From a virus, in IMG/VR virus record IMGVR_UViG_3300010232_000003: a stretch of 57,088 nt of DNA. One strand, 5' to 3'. Under the pieces are notes generated by a model, which saw only the letters and a program-made list of their open reading frames with translations, had not been told where the DNA came from and did not search any database. The translations under genes and the position numbers were made by a program. Below, piece after piece: positions 44,265-46,409 of the stretch (positions are counted from its first letter, which is position 1; each line of letters starts with the position of its first letter).

Positions 44265-45407
44265 TCAGTTATCATAGAGGTCCTCGAACGACTCCGGTGG
44301 CTCGTCAGTTAAGCTCCGCGACTCGGGTGGTTCATCGTCCGATGGCGGCTCGATATCGAAGTCACTCAAAGACGGCCCATACTCTCCATAGTATTCCCGC
44401 ATCGCGGTTACGCGCTTCTCGAATTGACTGCGAAAGTATCGACCAGTATCGTTCACGTCCACGATACGAGCGTGGTCACCGTTCTTCGGTCGTAGCGCTC
44501 GCCCGATGACCTGGATTTGCTTGACGTCGCTTTTCCCTGCTTGCGCGAGAACGATAGCGCTAATGTTCGGGATATCGACGCCCTCCCTTAATAGCGTCGA
44601 GACGAGGATATCGAGGTCACCGTTTTGGAACTCGTCGAGTGTATCCTGACGGATCTTAGTGGTGTCAGCGCCGTGCATGAACTCGGCGTTCGTATCAGCG
44701 ACTCGACTCGTCGCTTGCAACGCGCTGATGAACTCGCGCCTCGATTGCGCGTCGTCGAAGTCAACGGCGTCAATAGGATCGACGTCTCGGTTCAGTGCGT
44801 ACTCGAGGAGACGCCCGTGCTTGATACGATCCACGTTAACCAACACTTGGTACCCCAGGTTGGCGAGCTCAGCGGTTTTCGCCGCGACCGCGCGGTTCCT
44901 CGTCGCGGTGAGACTGATACAGCGACGGTACGCGTCGTGATACGCTTCACCTGTATTAGCGGTGTCGACACGACCGTAGTCTCGAGGGTCGATGACGTCG
45001 AATCGCGGTTCTGAGAGATACCCGGCGTCGATCATTTCCTCGGCGGTAACGGAGTGCGCCTCGCCGCCAACCGCGCCCTCGATCTTGAGCTCCTCGCCCT
45101 CGATACGGCGCCACGGGGTAGCGCTGAGCCCGACACGCATCGCGACGTTTAAATCCATCCCGATGTCGTGCATTGTGTCCGCCGCTGATGTCCTGTGACA
45201 GTTTTTTGTCAAGATATTATCAACAAAGAAGTTGTGATTGTTTTTTACTTCGATGTCGTAGACACGTTCTCGTCCGACTTTTTTGACTGTACGGACTGTA
45301 GTTCGATTCGCATCGCCATCGCGTACAGCTCGGGCTGCGCCTTCTTCAACATTTGACTCGCTGTCCATGCTGCTTTCGTGTGAATTGTCGCGTGACATGA
45401 CGTACAT
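44265..45407 (-). CDS. C-terminal intein fragment fused to the C-terminal half of an SF2 helicase
   Basis: ..VKKVGRERVYDIEVKNNHNFFVDNILTKN then CHRTSA. GLSATP motif III. Helicase C-domain motifs. Confidence 0.8.
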   Translation of the reverse strand: MYVMSRDNSHESSMDSESNVEEGAARAVRDGDANRTTVRTVKKVGRERVYDIEVKNNHNFFVDNILTKNCHRTSAADTMHDIGMDLNVAMRVGLSATPWRRIEGEELKIEGAVGGEAHSVTAEEMIDAGYLSEPRFDVIDPRDYGRVDTANTGEAYHDAYRRCISLTATRNRAVAAKTAELANLGYQVLVNVDRIKHGRLLEYALNRDVDPIDAVDFDDAQSRREFISALQATSRVADTNAEFMHGADTTKIRQDTLDEFQNGDLDILVSTLLREGVDIPNISAIVLAQAGKSDVKQIQVIGRALRPKNGDHARIVDVNDTGRYFRSQFEKRVTAMREYYGEYGPSLSDFDIEPPSDDEPPESRSLTDEPPESFEDLYDN

Positions 45408-46409
45408 ACTCCTATAAGGTTTTCTTGCGAATGATCGTTTTTGTGTCCGTCGACATGGTGCCAGAATATGCCCTGTACGTCGTTGCCTTCGTCACCGCAA
45501 ATTTCGCACAACGCCGGTGCATTAGGCAGGTCTGGTCGTATTCTGTTACCGTGCACATACATCGGGTTATCTTTGCCCGATAGTTTCGTCGCAGTTTTTC
45601 CTCCTTTCGACGCGACTCGTGCCATCCATTCGTCATCTGCTTTCGACCAATCCCATCCGTCACGATGTTTAGTCGTAATATGTCCACCCAATGCTGTCGA
45701 ACTTGTAAACGTTTCATCGCATTCTGGGCAGGGATAGGTTTCGTCCCTCGGGTGTTGCGCTGCAACGTGCCCGCCGACCGATGCGTATGATTCGAATGTT
45801 TCGTCACAATGTGAACATCTGTATTCGTCTTGTGTTGGTTCGGGCGTCTTTCTATCGATGTCGTGGTCACTGTGTCTGTGACTGTGCAGTTTGGACGCTG
45901 AATCGAACTGTTTGCTACAGCGTCCACACGTCCACGTGTCAGTGTTCGCATGAGCGCCAGCAGTGTGACTACGCATTTTGATCTTTGTGTCGAACGTTTT
46001 CCCACACTGTGGACACTCGAATTCGCCCTGCTTATCGTAAATGTCGTGGTCGTTCCATTGATGCTTACGCAGCTTGGACGAATTCGAGAATTCAGCTCCG
46101 CAGTGACCGCATTCATGTATCGTGCCTCCCATCTGTATTCATGTATAATGCGTCATTAGCCTTTAAGTTTTCGGCAGCAACGTATCCTCTATCTGTTAGT
46201 ACTTCGTGGTCAGGCGTGCATCGAATCGTACCGTCGTCAGTTTCGACTTTTACAATTTTACGTTCGCCCCTATCCCACACGTGTGTAACAGGCTGCGGTT
46301 CGATACCTCCATCAGAATTAACTGATAAAACACGATCTCCAACACTAACGTTTTCTATCGGTTTCGCGGACCCGTTAGCCATCGTGATTTCTTCACTGCG
46401 TGCGATACA
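45201..46409 (-). mobile_element. Intein split by an embedded free-standing homing endonuclease gene (fractured-gene arrangement)
   Basis: Cys1 codon at 46407-46409 and terminal Asn codon at 45201-45203. Extein junction FDE/CH restores a DECH box. Confidence 0.75.
45245..46132 (-). CDS. Endonuclease with five tandem C2H2 zinc fingers and an HNH domain, inside the intein
   Basis: Five C-x2-C-x12-H-x4-H units. HNH region WHHVDGH..NLIGVCTSCH. Different frame from the helicase. Confidence 0.85.
   Translation of the reverse strand: MGGTIHECGHCGAEFSNSSKLRKHQWNDHDIYDKQGEFECPQCGKTFDTKIKMRSHTAGAHANTDTWTCGRCSKQFDSASKLHSHRHSDHDIDRKTPEPTQDEYRCSHCDETFESYASVGGHVAAQHPRDETYPCPECDETFTSSTALGGHITTKHRDGWDWSKADDEWMARVASKGGKTATKLSGKDNPMYVHGNRIRPDLPNAPALCEICGDEGNDVQGIFWHHVDGHKNDHSQENLIGVCTSCHATIHTKAAWTASQMLKKAQPELYAMAMRIELQSVQSKKSDENVSTTSK

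What the first reader, a model, noticed from the sequence alone, without database searches (positions are those of the whole stretch)
45245..46132. Natural polydactyl zinc-finger nuclease with five canonical C2H2 fingers fused to HNH, plus three single-finger paralogs
Five consecutive units fit C-x2-C-x12-H-x4-H exactly:
- CGHCGAEFSNSSKLRKHQWNDH
- CPQCGKTFDTKIKMRSHTAGAH
- CGRCSKQFDSASKLHSHRHSDH
- CSHCDETFESYASVGGHVAAQH
- CPECDETFTSSTALGGHITTKH

An HNH core follows (WHHVDGH..NLIGVCTSCH). Three further genes (154-819, 36391-36873, 49690-50283) have one such finger followed by NUMOD3-like repeats and a closely related HNH (LDVHHxDGD..NLVTLCRSCH). This suggests a modular DNA-recognition family spreading within one genome. 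All four genes look AT-richer than their surroundings by eye.
Basis: seen in the sequence. Interest (0 to 1): 0.7.

Follow-up and report, generated by a model that had tools for sequence, protein, structure and literature searches.

The report
Zinc-finger homing nuclease inside split intein
A selfish DNA-cutting gene carrying five zinc fingers sits inside a protein-splicing element (intein) that breaks a virus's helicase gene in two; it is one of four related mobile nuclease genes that a near-identical virus lacks, and it is a natural counterpart of engineered zinc-finger nucleases.

Summary
ORF 45245..46132(-) encodes five C-x2-C-x12-H-x4-H fingers plus an HNH core. Three further genes encode one finger, NUMOD3 and HNH.

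The five-finger gene lies inside a 1209-nt intein inserted at motif II (DE|CH) of a helicase gene. It is out of frame, and the intein frame has 18 stops. The helicase is therefore encoded as N-extein+IntN and IntC+C-extein, a "fractured gene" (Dassa 2009).

A 90-97% identical viral contig has the uninterrupted helicase and lacks all four HNH genes, so all four vary in presence between close relatives.

Two unrelated metagenomic contigs carry the same composite (same helicase site, homologous intein, 2-3-finger HNH gene in the +1 frame). There the intein frame is kept stop-free across the nuclease gene (P<=2e-4), as in recently described out-of-frame-endonuclease inteins.

In the window a different alternative frame is stop-free exactly from the N-half stop (ATGA) to 4 nt before the C-half ATG (P=3e-4). 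Paralog 3 shows the same design. I propose a ribosome relay by termination-reinitiation.

Verdict: a new variant of known kinds. No activity has been tested.

The parts
46410..47273 (-). Helicase N-extein (288 codons, motifs I to II, ends ...VAVFDE)
   Evidence: Pfam ResIII 1.8e-14, DEAD 2e-6. 96% aa identical to the uninterrupted helicase of L001. dN/dS 0.11 against L001.
46116..46409 (-). IntN: N-terminal intein half, 98 codons, starting at Cys1 (CIARSEEIT...) with block B TPDH. It is followed by stop TGA at 46113-46115.
   Evidence: Pfam Intein_splicing and Hint hits at aa 287-378 of the N-half ORF. 47% and 43% identical to the inteins of L005 and L205. Absent from L001. Net charge -7.
45245..46132 (-). 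Five-finger C2H2-HNH homing-endonuclease gene, in the +1 frame relative to the intein. Fingers at 46046-46111, 45950-46015, 45863-45928, 45752-45817 and 45665-45730. HNH core at 45380-45508. A conserved C-terminal tail overlaps the IntC coding region.
   Evidence: The tail is conserved with P0029 and P0131. The ATG lies 277 nt after the first base of the Cys1 codon in all three composite elements.
45412..46116 (-). Bridge ORF (234 codons, third frame, product net charge +30, no Pfam hit). Its ATG overlaps the N-half stop as ATGA. Its TAG stop lies 4 nt before the C-half ATG.
   Evidence: 0 stops in 234 codons against 4.7 expected under synonymous shuffles of the nuclease gene (P=2.8e-4) and 0 of 50000 codon-order shuffles. 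Junctions. No Pfam family.
45201..45407 (-). IntC: C-terminal intein half, 69 codons from ATG 45407 (alternative ATGs at 45398 and 45368), ending ...VYDIEVKNNHNFFVDNILTKN
   Evidence: Pfam Intein_splicing profile positions 103-155. Blocks F and G align with L005 and L205. Same frame as IntN; the whole insert 45201..46409 is 1209 nt = 403 codons.
44265..45200 (-). Helicase C-extein, starting with the +1 Cys (CHRTSAADT...). Splicing would restore the DECH box.
   Evidence: Pfam Helicase_C 6.3e-11. 96% identical to L001. dN/dS 0.135.
154..819 (-). HEG1: one finger, NUMOD3 and HNH. Inserted in the 3' end of the ERCC4-type nuclease gene 810..1457. It brings a recoded copy of that gene's last ~20 codons, and the original 3' end is now the nuclease's own C-terminal tail.
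   Evidence: Pfam. Absent from L003; duplicated flank shown. The adjacent ~1 kb (820-1800) is only 65-68% identical to the relative, against 97-99% beyond.
36391..36873 (-). HEG2: one finger, NUMOD3 and HNH. It replaces a 60-aa ORF of the relative at an intergenic site.
   Evidence: Pfam. Window 36326..36883 corresponds to unrelated 246 nt in L002.
49690..50283 (-). HEG3: one finger, NUMOD3 and HNH. Inserted after codon 25 of the Nramp-type transporter gene. The new transporter start (ATG 49757) and its first 22 codons are encoded inside the HNH core in another frame.
   Evidence: Pfam. The 647-nt insert 49674..50320 is absent from L001.
49760..50395 (-). Second bridge ORF. It starts at the original transporter ATG (first 25 codons identical to the relative), crosses HEG3 in an alternative frame, and stops (TAA) 2 nt before the new transporter ATG.
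   Evidence: 0 stops in 173 codons against 4.4 expected (P=0.003). No Pfam family.

Best explanation
Window 45201..46409 is a composite selfish element in the helicase gene of an uncultured virus, probably a haloarchaeal tailed virus.

Anatomy (shown):
- A class-1 mini-intein sits at helicase motif II (DE|CH).
- Nested in it, in the +1 frame, is a homing-endonuclease gene of free-standing type: five C2H2 fingers, a degenerate NUMOD3-like linker and an HNH nuclease.
- The intein frame is closed by 18 stops. The helicase is therefore made as two polypeptides, N-extein+IntN (386 aa) and IntC+C-extein.
- This is the 'fractured gene' arrangement of Dassa 2009.

Mechanism (inferred):
- The two intein halves, which carry complementary charge, associate. 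Protein trans-splicing then rebuilds the DECH helicase.
- The nuclease binds the intein-less allele through its finger array. Such an allele is present in the sister virus L001.
- The HNH domain nicks or cuts that allele.
- Recombinational repair during co-infection copies intein plus nuclease gene into it.

Relay (inferred, less certain): the nuclease gene is overprinted by a stop-free 'bridge' ORF.
- The bridge ORF starts on the N-half stop (ATGA) and ends 4 nt before the C-half ATG.
- Ribosomes would therefore be handed from the first helicase half to the second by termination-reinitiation.
- This would keep the two halves stoichiometric across a 0.7-kb insert.

Paralogs: the three single-finger genes are free-standing homing-endonuclease genes of the same family, inserted at or inside the ends of other genes.
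- HEG1 and HEG3 carry replacement gene ends.
- HEG3 also has a bridge ORF.
For: Anatomy:
- Pfam finds ResIII/DEAD plus the N-terminal intein part in ORF 46113..47273, and the C-terminal intein part plus Helicase_C in ORF 44265..45407.
- The two halves share a frame and the insert is exactly 403 codons.
- All five catalytic positions named by Dassa 2009 are present: Cys1, Thr and His of TPDH, terminal Asn, +1 Cys.
- IntN is 98 aa, within the 88-105 range of known fractured genes. The halves have opposite charge, -7 and +4.

Empty site:
- L001 encodes the uninterrupted 602-aa helicase...VAVFDE|CHRTSAADT....
- Extein dN/dS is 0.11-0.13.

Presence/absence: all four HNH genes are absent from the same relative. 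About 1 kb next to HEG1 is 65-68% identical, against 97-99% beyond it.

The arrangement is real and conserved:
- L005 and L205 carry a homologous intein at the same helicase site, with a 2-3-finger C2H2-HNH gene in the same +1 frame.
- In all three elements the nuclease ATG lies at the same offset of 277 nt.
- The nuclease tail is conserved across the overlap with IntC.

Frame openness:
- The intein frame is stop-free over the nuclease gene in L005 (0 vs 13-16 expected; 0 of 20000 shuffles) and in L205 (0 vs 7-8; P<=2e-4).
- In the window that frame has 18 stops, as chance predicts.
- The other frame has 0 stops in 234 codons (P=2.8e-4), with ATGA and TAG-N4-ATG junctions.
- The HEG3 bridge has 0 stops in 173 codons (P=0.003), with a TAA-N2-ATG junction.
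- HEG1 and HEG2 have no downstream host ORF to rescue and show normal stop counts.

Literature:
- In Haloferax volcanii, coupling by termination-reinitiation needs -4/-1 overlaps or very short gaps, is nearly abolished at about 20 nt, and is enriched among subunits of complexes (PMC6728339, PMC10666635).
- Related HNH domains occur as in-frame intein endonucleases in DnaE and ThyX (L008, L010, L018).
Against: - Nothing has been assayed: no splicing, no cleavage, no binding.
- The penultimate intein residue is Lys (Ser in L005 and L205), not the usual His.
- IntC is 56-69 aa, slightly longer than the 33-54 aa of most known fractured genes.
- Each intein half scores below Pfam's gathering cut-off on its own (29 and 22 bits vs 35.8). 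The contiguous L205 intein passes (51.7 bits).
- The HNH domain is below Pfam's cut-off.
- The finger linkers are not canonical, and fingers 4-5 have S/A/G at the usual base-contact positions. The array may not read DNA triplet by triplet.
- The stop-free frame in the window (nuclease +1) is not the frame kept open in L005 and L205 (nuclease -1), so the relay is not simply inherited from a shared state.
- The relay rests on two loci and on shuffle statistics.
- Only three composite elements were found. Two lie on contigs of 1.2 and 2.3 kb.
- Host assignment is indirect.
Confidence: 0.7

Rival explanations
1. The intein is really translated as one chain. Ribosomes shift from the intein frame into the stop-free third frame near 46116-46152 (-1) and back near 45415-45491 (+1). 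The result is a cis-splicing precursor like those of L005 and L205. Alternatively, the stop-free frame is the recent relic of such a contiguous ORF, broken by two compensating 1-nt indels.
For: - The third frame is stop-free exactly over the stretch where the intein frame is closed.
- The two relatives have contiguous intein ORFs across the nuclease gene.
- N and C halves are in the same frame, as two compensating shifts would leave them.
Against: - The 37-nt window before the N-half stop contains no X_XXY_YYZ slippery heptamer (sequence read).
- Two separate recoding events would be needed.
- The open frame is nuclease +1, whereas in L005 and L205 it is nuclease -1. Sliding the block by indels cannot derive one from the other.
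- The exact ATGA overlap and the ATG 4 nt after the bridge stop are not needed under this model, but the relay model requires them.
Confidence: 0.1
2. Artefact or decay. The fractured look comes from assembly or sequencing indels, or the helicase is a dead gene in a defective genome and nothing is spliced.
For: - The window is a metagenomic-type assembly with an exact 55-nt terminal overlap.
- No identical proteins are on record elsewhere.
- Penultimate His is missing.
Against: - The intein frame has 18 dispersed stops (9 TGA, 6 TAA, 3 TAG), not one frameshift.
- The nuclease ORF has its own ATG 3 codons after an in-frame stop. Its N-terminus and tail are homologous to those of P0029 and P0131.
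- The same nested layout recurs in two independent assemblies.
- All splicing residues are intact and the exteins are under purifying selection.
- The rest of the genome is collinear and 90-97% identical to a second assembly.
Confidence: 0.05
3. The composite element and the split intein are as described, but the stop-free 'bridge' frames are not a relay. They are by-products of codon and dipeptide composition, or of selection on something else such as mRNA stability. The C-half and the transporter are then translated from their own internal promoters as leaderless mRNAs.
For: - Haloarchaeal mRNAs are commonly leaderless (general knowledge).
- TATA-like stretches can be read upstream of the nuclease genes, so internal promoters are plausible.
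- Only two loci support the relay.
- P-values are 3e-4 and 3e-3, after several frames were inspected.
Against: - Synonymous-codon shuffles keep protein sequence and codon usage, yet rarely give a stop-free frame.
- The two nuclease genes with nothing downstream to rescue show ordinary stop counts.
- Both bridges begin and end at positions that fit termination-reinitiation rules: ATGA or the original start at one end, and a stop 2-4 nt before the restart ATG at the other (PMC10666635).
Confidence: 0.3
4. The five-finger HNH protein is not a homing enzyme. It might be a packaging-type HNH that assists terminase, a regulator, or a nuclease used against hosts or competitors, and its position in the intein would be incidental.
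For: - Many phage HNH proteins work with terminase (PMC3592412).
- C2H2 fingers can bind RNA or protein.
- The target and any cleavage activity are unknown.
Against: - It is nested at the canonical endonuclease position of an intein.
- It is present or absent together with the intein.
- It is conserved in that position in three elements.
- Its paralogs carry NUMOD3, and all four genes are presence/absence polymorphisms with flank duplication or divergent adjacent tracts.
Confidence: 0.07

Closest known systems
[quoted passage not shown] 2009, PMC2677866)
   Same: - Same order on one strand: N-extein+IntN, endonuclease gene, IntC+C-extein.
- The host gene is a DNA-metabolism enzyme.
- IntN length is within range.
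- All five catalytic residues are present.
- The intein halves carry opposite charge.
- The endonuclease 3' end overlaps the IntC start and supplies its Met.
   Different: - The endonuclease here is HNH with a C2H2 array. The 2009 loci had GIY-YIG or Vsr-like enzymes, and HNH was only predicted as possible.
- There is no 27-51-nt spacer; the nuclease ATG lies 17 nt before the IntN stop.
- The overlap with IntC is 124-163 nt, against 6-69 nt.
- The setting is a probable archaeal virus rather than marine phage.
- A stop-free bridge ORF spans the nuclease gene.
[quoted passage not shown]
   Same: - The endonuclease is encoded in another frame of the intein's central region.
- It is interpreted as secondary invasion of a mini-intein by a free-standing gene.
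- L005 and L205 fit this exactly: the intein frame is kept open over the nuclease gene.
   Different: - Those endonucleases are LAGLIDADG, endonuclease-VII-like or antisense Vsr/LAGLIDADG, not HNH with fingers.
- In the window the intein frame is not open, so the window itself is the split derivative or sister state.
Hidden out-of-frame HNH in a phage methylase (ShiLan domain, PMC11855218) and mobE in the Aeh1 nrdA gene (cited in PMC2677866)
   Same: - An HNH homing gene is embedded in, or splits, an essential gene.
- The host frame is kept free of stops across the insert (ShiLan).
- The host gene is expressed as two pieces around an HNH gene (Aeh1 nrdA).
   Different: - Neither case involves an intein or C2H2 fingers.
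- Both are in bacterial hosts.
Free-standing NUMOD3-HNH homing endonucleases of phages and haloviruses (PHROG phrog_1271; HCTV-5 gp111, HJTV-4 ORF23)
   Same: - Same HNH core with a CxxC...CxxC zinc site.
- Modular N-terminal DNA-binding repeats.
- All four window proteins hit phrog_1271.
   Different: - The two halovirus proteins inspected use helix-turn-helix repeats and have no C2H2 unit.
- No paper in the library links C2H2 arrays with HNH homing enzymes.
Engineered zinc-finger nucleases and the Zif268-HNH nickase (Xu and Gupta 2012, PMC3592412)
   Same: A tandem C2H2 array is fused to a small nuclease domain. In the 2012 nickase that domain is also HNH.
   Different: - This one is natural.
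- Linkers are non-canonical.
- The proteins are acidic, halophile-type.
- The order is fingers then HNH.
- Specificity and cut type are unknown.

Membership tests
C2H2 zinc finger (Pfam zf-C2H2 / zf-C2H2_4) | C-x2-4-C-x12-H-x3-5-H with conserved hydrophobic positions (x3-F-x5-psi-x2-H) | tested here: met
   Five units fit, all with F and L/M/V at the expected places. Pfam E=6.6e-20, above cut-off.
C2H2 zinc finger (Pfam zf-C2H2 / zf-C2H2_4) | beta-beta-alpha fold for each unit | tested here: met
   The AF2 model built on alignment A5 shows E-E-H at each of the five units, with block pLDDT about 70-93. Foldseek top hits are CTCF and Aart arrays. The single-sequence model was uninformative (pLDDT 37).
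Polydactyl DNA-reading array (eukaryotic type) | TGEKP-like 7-residue linkers and base-contact residues at helix positions -1, 2, 3, 6 | tested here: not met
   Linkers are DIYDKQGEFE, ANTDTWT, DIDRKTPEPTQDEYR and PRDETYP. Two have the right length but none the right sequence. Fingers 4-5 have S/A/G at the contact positions.
HNH (beta-beta-alpha-Me) nuclease | HH..D...N...H catalytic pattern flanked by CxxC...CxxC | tested here: met
   C209, C212, H225, H226, D228, N238, C243, C246 and H247 are invariant among the four window proteins. phrog_1271 E=1e-17. Predicted fold.
HNH (beta-beta-alpha-Me) nuclease | Pfam PF01844 gathering score | tested here: not met
   17.3 bits against 21.4 for the five-finger protein. 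The three paralogs pass with 22.4-31.4 bits.
HNH (beta-beta-alpha-Me) nuclease | Metal-dependent DNA nicking or cleavage | not testable with these tools
   Needs purified protein and a substrate.
Class-1 intein (HINT) | Cys/Ser1, block B TxxH, blocks F/G, C-terminal Asn, +1 Cys/Ser/Thr | tested here: met
   CIARSE..., TPDH, VYDIEVKNNHNFF...TKN|C. Aligns with the L005 and L205 inteins.
Class-1 intein (HINT) | Penultimate His | tested here: not met
   Lys in the window, Ser in L005 and L205. To my knowledge some active inteins lack this His.
Class-1 intein (HINT) | Pfam Intein_splicing gathering score | tested here: inconclusive
   The halves score 29.3 and 22.0 bits separately, against a cut-off of 35.8. 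The homologous contiguous intein of L205 scores 51.7.
Fractured gene (Dassa 2009) | N-extein+IntN ORF, endonuclease ORF, then IntC+C-extein ORF on one strand, with intact homologues elsewhere | tested here: met
Fractured gene (Dassa 2009) | Protein trans-splicing restores the enzyme | not testable with these tools
   Only indirect support: intact catalytic residues, charge complementarity, extein dN/dS 0.11-0.13.
Intein with out-of-frame endonuclease (Gogarten lab, 2025-26) | Intein reading frame stays open through the endonuclease-coding region | tested here: not met
   The window has 18 stops, as chance predicts. The feature is met in the relatives L005 and L205.
Homing endonuclease gene (functional class) | Presence/absence polymorphism at a precise site, with an intact empty allele in close relatives | tested here: met
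   Seen for all four genes against IMGVR_UViG_3300046051_000019.
Homing endonuclease gene (functional class) | Enzyme cleaves the empty allele and the element is copied in | not testable with these tools
   Needs cleavage assays and mixed infections.
NUMOD3 | Pfam PF07460 match | tested here: not met
   Not detected in the five-finger protein, where only a look-alike 'GKDNPMY' stretch can be read. Detected in all three paralogs.

The most novel reading that the evidence does not exclude
Homing-endonuclease genes of this family carry a selected, stop-free 'bridge' reading frame overprinted on the nuclease gene.

- When the element interrupts a host ORF, ribosomes leaving the upstream piece would re-initiate on the bridge (ATGA or the original start codon). 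They would ride across the 0.5-0.7-kb insert and terminate 2-4 nt before the restart codon of the downstream piece.
- Host-gene translation and subunit stoichiometry would thus survive the insertion.
- In the sister elements L005 and L205 the same need is met by keeping the intein frame itself open.
- This would be a general trick that lets selfish nucleases fracture essential genes.
- It would also give one intein lineage caught in both the 'nested, contiguous' and the 'split' state.
Probability: 0.4. Interest if true: 0.8.

Novelty: new variant of a known kind. Interest (0 to 1): 0.72.

Why it matters
1. It is a natural fusion of a multi-finger C2H2 array with a small HNH nuclease. That is the design people built by hand as zinc-finger nucleases and the Zif268-HNH nickase. 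Finger number varies among relatives (1, 2-3, 5). If the fingers set target specificity, this is a natural experiment in retargeting a nuclease by adding modules.

2. It supplies the HNH case that Dassa et al. predicted for fractured genes, and it extends fractured genes to a probable archaeal virus.

3. One intein lineage shows both states: a contiguous ORF with an overprinted nuclease gene, and a truly split gene. That bears directly on how split inteins arise.

4. The bridge ORFs, if confirmed, are a simple and testable mechanism by which selfish elements avoid polar damage to the genes they break.

5. New naturally split inteins are useful reagents for protein ligation, here possibly at high salt.

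Tried and rejected
- Close relatives of the five-finger protein. The word-indexed search of 5.8 billion proteins returned only a fish zinc-finger protein. tblastn against phage genomes returned nothing. Exact look-ups of the window's proteins found nothing.
- Relatives of the intein by word search: none.
- Scans of IMG/VR, JGI metagenomes and GTDB genomes, using nuclease and intein alignments. They returned about 280 loci with ordinary inteins or HNH genes, and no further C2H2-HNH gene.
- Single-sequence AlphaFold: pLDDT 37, discarded.
- Amber suppression as a rescue of the intein frame. ARAGORN calls a tRNA(CUA) at 43870..43943, but Rfam does not support it, and only 3 of the 18 stops are TAG.
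- A single frameshift or sequencing error: rejected because the stops are many and dispersed.
- Recent intragenomic duplication of the four genes: rejected because they are 24-45% identical.
- A Ty1-like +1 slip at GGG-AGG-C (46130-46124) that would fuse IntN to the nuclease. I considered it from the sequence, but it would not reach IntC, and the nuclease N-terminus matches free-standing relatives. Not pursued.
- Predicting the DNA target from finger residues: not attempted. The linkers and contact residues depart from the eukaryotic code, so any prediction would be guesswork.

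
Full report
**1. The observation.**

ORF 45245..46132 on the minus strand encodes a 295-aa protein with the five quoted C-x2-C-x12-H-x4-H units (aa 8-29, 40-61, 69-90, 106-127, 135-156). A CxxC...HH.D...N...CxxCH...H nuclease core follows at aa 209-251.

Evidence for the fingers:
- Pfam gives zf-C2H2_4 at E=6.6e-20 and zf-C2H2 at 1.5e-14.
- phmmer against all PDB chains aligns aa 5-154 with the six-finger protein Aart (1.4e-14) and with ZNF568 (1.9e-15).
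- AlphaFold on the single sequence was useless (pLDDT 37).
- With a nine-sequence alignment AlphaFold reached pLDDT 70.5. It put a strand-strand-helix unit at each of the five positions and a beta-beta-alpha-Me unit at the nuclease core.
- Foldseek then returned DNA-bound CTCF and Aart arrays.

Evidence for the HNH domain:
- Pfam HNH is below its cut-off (17.3 vs 21.4 bits).
- PHROGs places the protein in phrog_1271 'HNH endonuclease' at 1e-17.
- A full HMMER scan of 1.84 billion representatives with the C-terminal 145 aa returned 150 HNH proteins. None was better than 2.9e-7.

The three other genes each have one finger, NUMOD3 and HNH above cut-off. The finger motif occurs in this genome only inside these four genes. 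All four are AT-richer than their surroundings.

**2.

- The ORF just upstream (46113..47273) is the first half of a superfamily-2 helicase. It ends ...VAVFDE and then runs on as CIARSEEIT...TPDH..., the N-terminal half of an intein.
- The ORF just downstream (44265..45407) begins with ...VYDIEVKNNHNFFVDNILTKN, the C-terminal intein blocks. It continues CHRTSAADT... into Helicase_C.
- Removing the insert restores the DECH box.
- The insert, 45201..46409, is exactly 403 codons. Its two intein parts share one frame, and the nuclease gene lies in the +1 frame.
- Between its two parts the intein frame holds 18 stops of all three kinds.

This is the 'fractured gene' layout of Dassa et al. 2009:
- The endonuclease 3' end overlaps the start of IntC.
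- IntN is 98 aa (88-105 in that paper).
- All five catalytic residues named there are present.
- The halves carry opposite charge, -7 and +4 for the IntC core.

Differences from that paper:
- The enzyme is HNH rather than GIY-YIG or Vsr-like.
- There is no spacer before the nuclease gene.
- The overlap with IntC is longer (124-163 nt).
- The penultimate intein residue is Lys.

**3. An empty site, and presence/absence of all four genes.**

One IMG/VR contig (IMGVR_UViG_3300046051_000019; loci L001-L003, L288) is collinear with the window at 90-97% identity.

- Helicase site. The contig encodes an uninterrupted 602-aa helicase reading ...VAVFDECHRTSAADT.... At the DNA level the insert is missing cleanly. 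Extein dN/dS against this relative is 0.11 and 0.135.
- HEG3 (49690..50283). It lies in a 647-nt insert after codon 25 of an Nramp-type transporter gene. The insert brings a new ATG and a new N-terminus for the transporter, encoded inside the HNH core in another frame.
- HEG1 (154..819). It sits in the 3' end of an ERCC4-type nuclease gene. It brings a recoded duplicate of that gene's last ~20 codons, and the original 3' end has become the tail of the nuclease ORF. The adjacent ~1 kb is only 65-68% identical to the relative, against 97-99% beyond it. That is the pattern expected of DNA imported with a homing gene.
- HEG2 (36391..36873). It replaces a 60-aa ORF of the relative.

The four proteins are 24-45% identical. 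The five-finger one is closest to two foreign proteins. They are therefore members of one family acquired separately, not recent copies of each other.

**4. The same composite elsewhere.**

Among distant HNH hits, three carried C2H2 units: P0029 (three fingers), P0131 (two to three) and P0046 (one).

- The contigs of P0131 (L005, 1168 nt) and P0029 (L205, 2296 nt) show the same build.
- Each has a helicase ...DE|C intein N-part upstream and ...ERVYDIEV.DNHNFF....SN|CH downstream.
- The nuclease gene is in the +1 frame.
- Its ATG lies 277 nt after the first base of the Cys1 codon, the same offset as in the window.
- The inteins are 43-47% identical to the window's.
- The nuclease tails after the HNH core align (MLKKAQPELYA / MLKATAPEVWA / AIKDSVPELHT). 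The nuclease frame is therefore truly coding through its overlap with IntC.

This rules out an assembly artefact and argues for one ancestral invasion of this intein by a free-standing gene. Scans of IMG/VR, JGI metagenomes and GTDB genomes found many inteins and HNH genes but no further C2H2-HNH gene. The element appears rare in those collections.

**5. Which frames are open.**

| Locus | Frame tested | Stops observed | Stops expected | P |
|---|---|---|---|---|
| L005 | intein frame, over the nuclease gene | 0 | 13-16 | 0 of 20000 shuffles |
| L205 | intein frame, over the nuclease gene | 0 | 7-8 | <=2e-4 |
| Window, five-finger gene | intein frame | 18 | about 16-18 | not significant |
| Window, five-finger gene | other alternative frame (ORF 45412..46116; 234 codons) | 0 | 4.7 | 2.8e-4 synonymous; 0 of 50000 codon-order |
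| Window, HEG3 | bridge ORF 49760..50395 (173 codons) | 0 | 4.4 | 0.003 |
| Window, HEG1 and HEG2 | both alternative frames | ordinary | ordinary | not significant |

- In L005 and L205 the intein reading frame has no stop anywhere in the insert. These two are inteins with an overprinted, out-of-frame endonuclease. That is a rare architecture, recently described for the cyanobacterial dnaX intein and some actinobacteriophage inteins, and without an intein for a hidden HNH in a phage methylase.
- The window is different: its intein frame has the number of stops chance predicts.
- The window's other alternative frame is stop-free exactly where the intein frame is closed. Its ATG overlaps the N-half stop as ATGA. 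Its TAG lies 4 nt before the C-half ATG.
- The HEG3 bridge starts at the original transporter ATG and crosses HEG3. It stops at TAA, 2 nt before the new transporter ATG.
- HEG1 and HEG2 have nothing downstream to rescue. They serve as internal controls.
- Neither bridge product matches any Pfam family. The first has a net charge of +30 in an acidic proteome.

**6. How it most likely works.**

Shown:
- the anatomy;
- the empty allele;
- the conservation of the nested layout;
- the frame statistics.

Inferred:
- The two helicase halves are joined by trans-splicing.
- The five-finger protein recognises the intein-less DECH-coding sequence through its fingers, and the HNH domain nicks or cuts it.
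- Repair then copies in the element.

Inferred, with less confidence: the bridge ORFs pass ribosomes across the insert by termination-reinitiation. This fits experiments in Haloferax volcanii (PMC6728339, PMC10666635):
- Coupling there needs -4/-1 overlaps or very short gaps.
- It is almost lost at about 20 nt.
- It is enriched among subunits of complexes.

Without a relay, a 0.7-kb insert would uncouple the halves. The main doubts are these:
- There is no experiment.
- The sample of loci is small.
- The finger linkers and contact residues are non-canonical.
- The open frame in the window is not the one kept open in the relatives.

**7. Rivals.**

- Recoding through the third frame into one chain is possible. 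It needs two shifts with no recognisable slippery site, and it does not explain the exact start and stop placements.
- Sequencing error or gene decay is contradicted by the dispersed stops, the recurrence in independent assemblies, the intact catalytic residues and purifying selection.
- A non-homing role for the nuclease is contradicted by its position and its presence/absence behaviour.
- The bridge frames could still be a compositional accident with independent promoters for the downstream pieces. I give that about 0.3.

**8. Comparison and novelty.**

The window is a member of the 'fractured gene' class by anatomy. Its relatives are members of the 'out-of-frame endonuclease intein' class. 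Its nuclease belongs to the phage and halovirus HNH family phrog_1271. Two known halovirus proteins with the same core (HCTV-5 gp111, HJTV-4 ORF23) use helix-turn-helix repeats, not fingers.

New here:
- a C2H2 array on a homing HNH enzyme, for which no paper in the library was found;
- HNH as the fracturing enzyme;
- the probable archaeal-virus setting;
- both contiguous and split states in one intein lineage;
- the bridge ORFs.

**9. Host.**

The host is inferred only from three points:
- PolB is 24% identical to that of Halorubrum tailed virus 27.
- HNH relatives occur in Haloarcula and Natrinema viruses.
- The proteome is acidic.

Noticed in passing
window 1-55 and 57034-57088: An exact 55-nt terminal direct repeat, and the relative's contig runs straight across the join. 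The window is therefore a complete circular (or circularly permuted) assembly of about 57,033 bp.
   Followed up: yes
window 820-1800 (gene 810..1457 and the 3' end of PolB 1468..4023): A sharp block of 65-68% identity to the relative, next to HEG1, against 97-99% from 1800 onward. It looks like a recombination or co-conversion tract bounded by the nuclease gene.
   Followed up: partly
window 36344-36368(-), 38242-38266(-), 56722-56746(+); weaker copies near 40622-40677 and 34896-34933: A repeated intergenic element, TAGTCTAAATGGAnAnGAGGTCCCA, lying within a ~60-nt repeat that starts AAGACTTAT.... It occurs 3 times exactly, with 0 expected by chance. It sits just upstream of gene starts and is also present in the relative. 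It could be a promoter or regulatory motif.
   Followed up: partly
window 43870-43943(-) and 44147-44222(-): tRNA-Met is supported by both ARAGORN and Rfam (52.7 bits). ARAGORN also calls a tRNA with anticodon CUA ('Pyl'), which Rfam does not support. That call is probably false, and it does not rescue the intein frame.
   Followed up: yes
window 36989-37005(-): A perfect tRNA T-arm-like stem-loop (GCTGG TTCGATC CCAGC) in the intergenic region just upstream of HEG2. ARAGORN does not call it as a tRNA. It could be a tRNA fragment or an attachment-site remnant.
   Followed up: no
window 48516-49757(-): An Nramp-family metal transporter gene (Pfam 1.1e-31) in a viral genome, next to a UDG-family gene (50399..51016). 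A transporter is an unusual auxiliary gene for a virus.
   Followed up: no
window 47400-48300, 38400-38700, 39900-40200, 55800-56100: Further short blocks of low identity (74-89%) to the otherwise 95-99% identical relative. None is adjacent to an HNH gene.
   Followed up: no
This is a coincidental sixth match, not a finger.
   Followed up: yes
L008, L010, L018 (IMG/VR contigs): In-frame HNH inteins in DnaE-type polymerase and ThyX genes of low-GC phage contigs. Their HNH cores are related to the window's. They are examples of the contiguous end-state of the same kind of association.
   Followed up: no
L002 11360-11605: At the site occupied by HEG2 in the window, the relative has a 60-aa acidic ORF (MARYKLTGYTVNTDELPDWKIDEL...) preceded by the repeated intergenic element. 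Its function is unknown.
   Followed up: no
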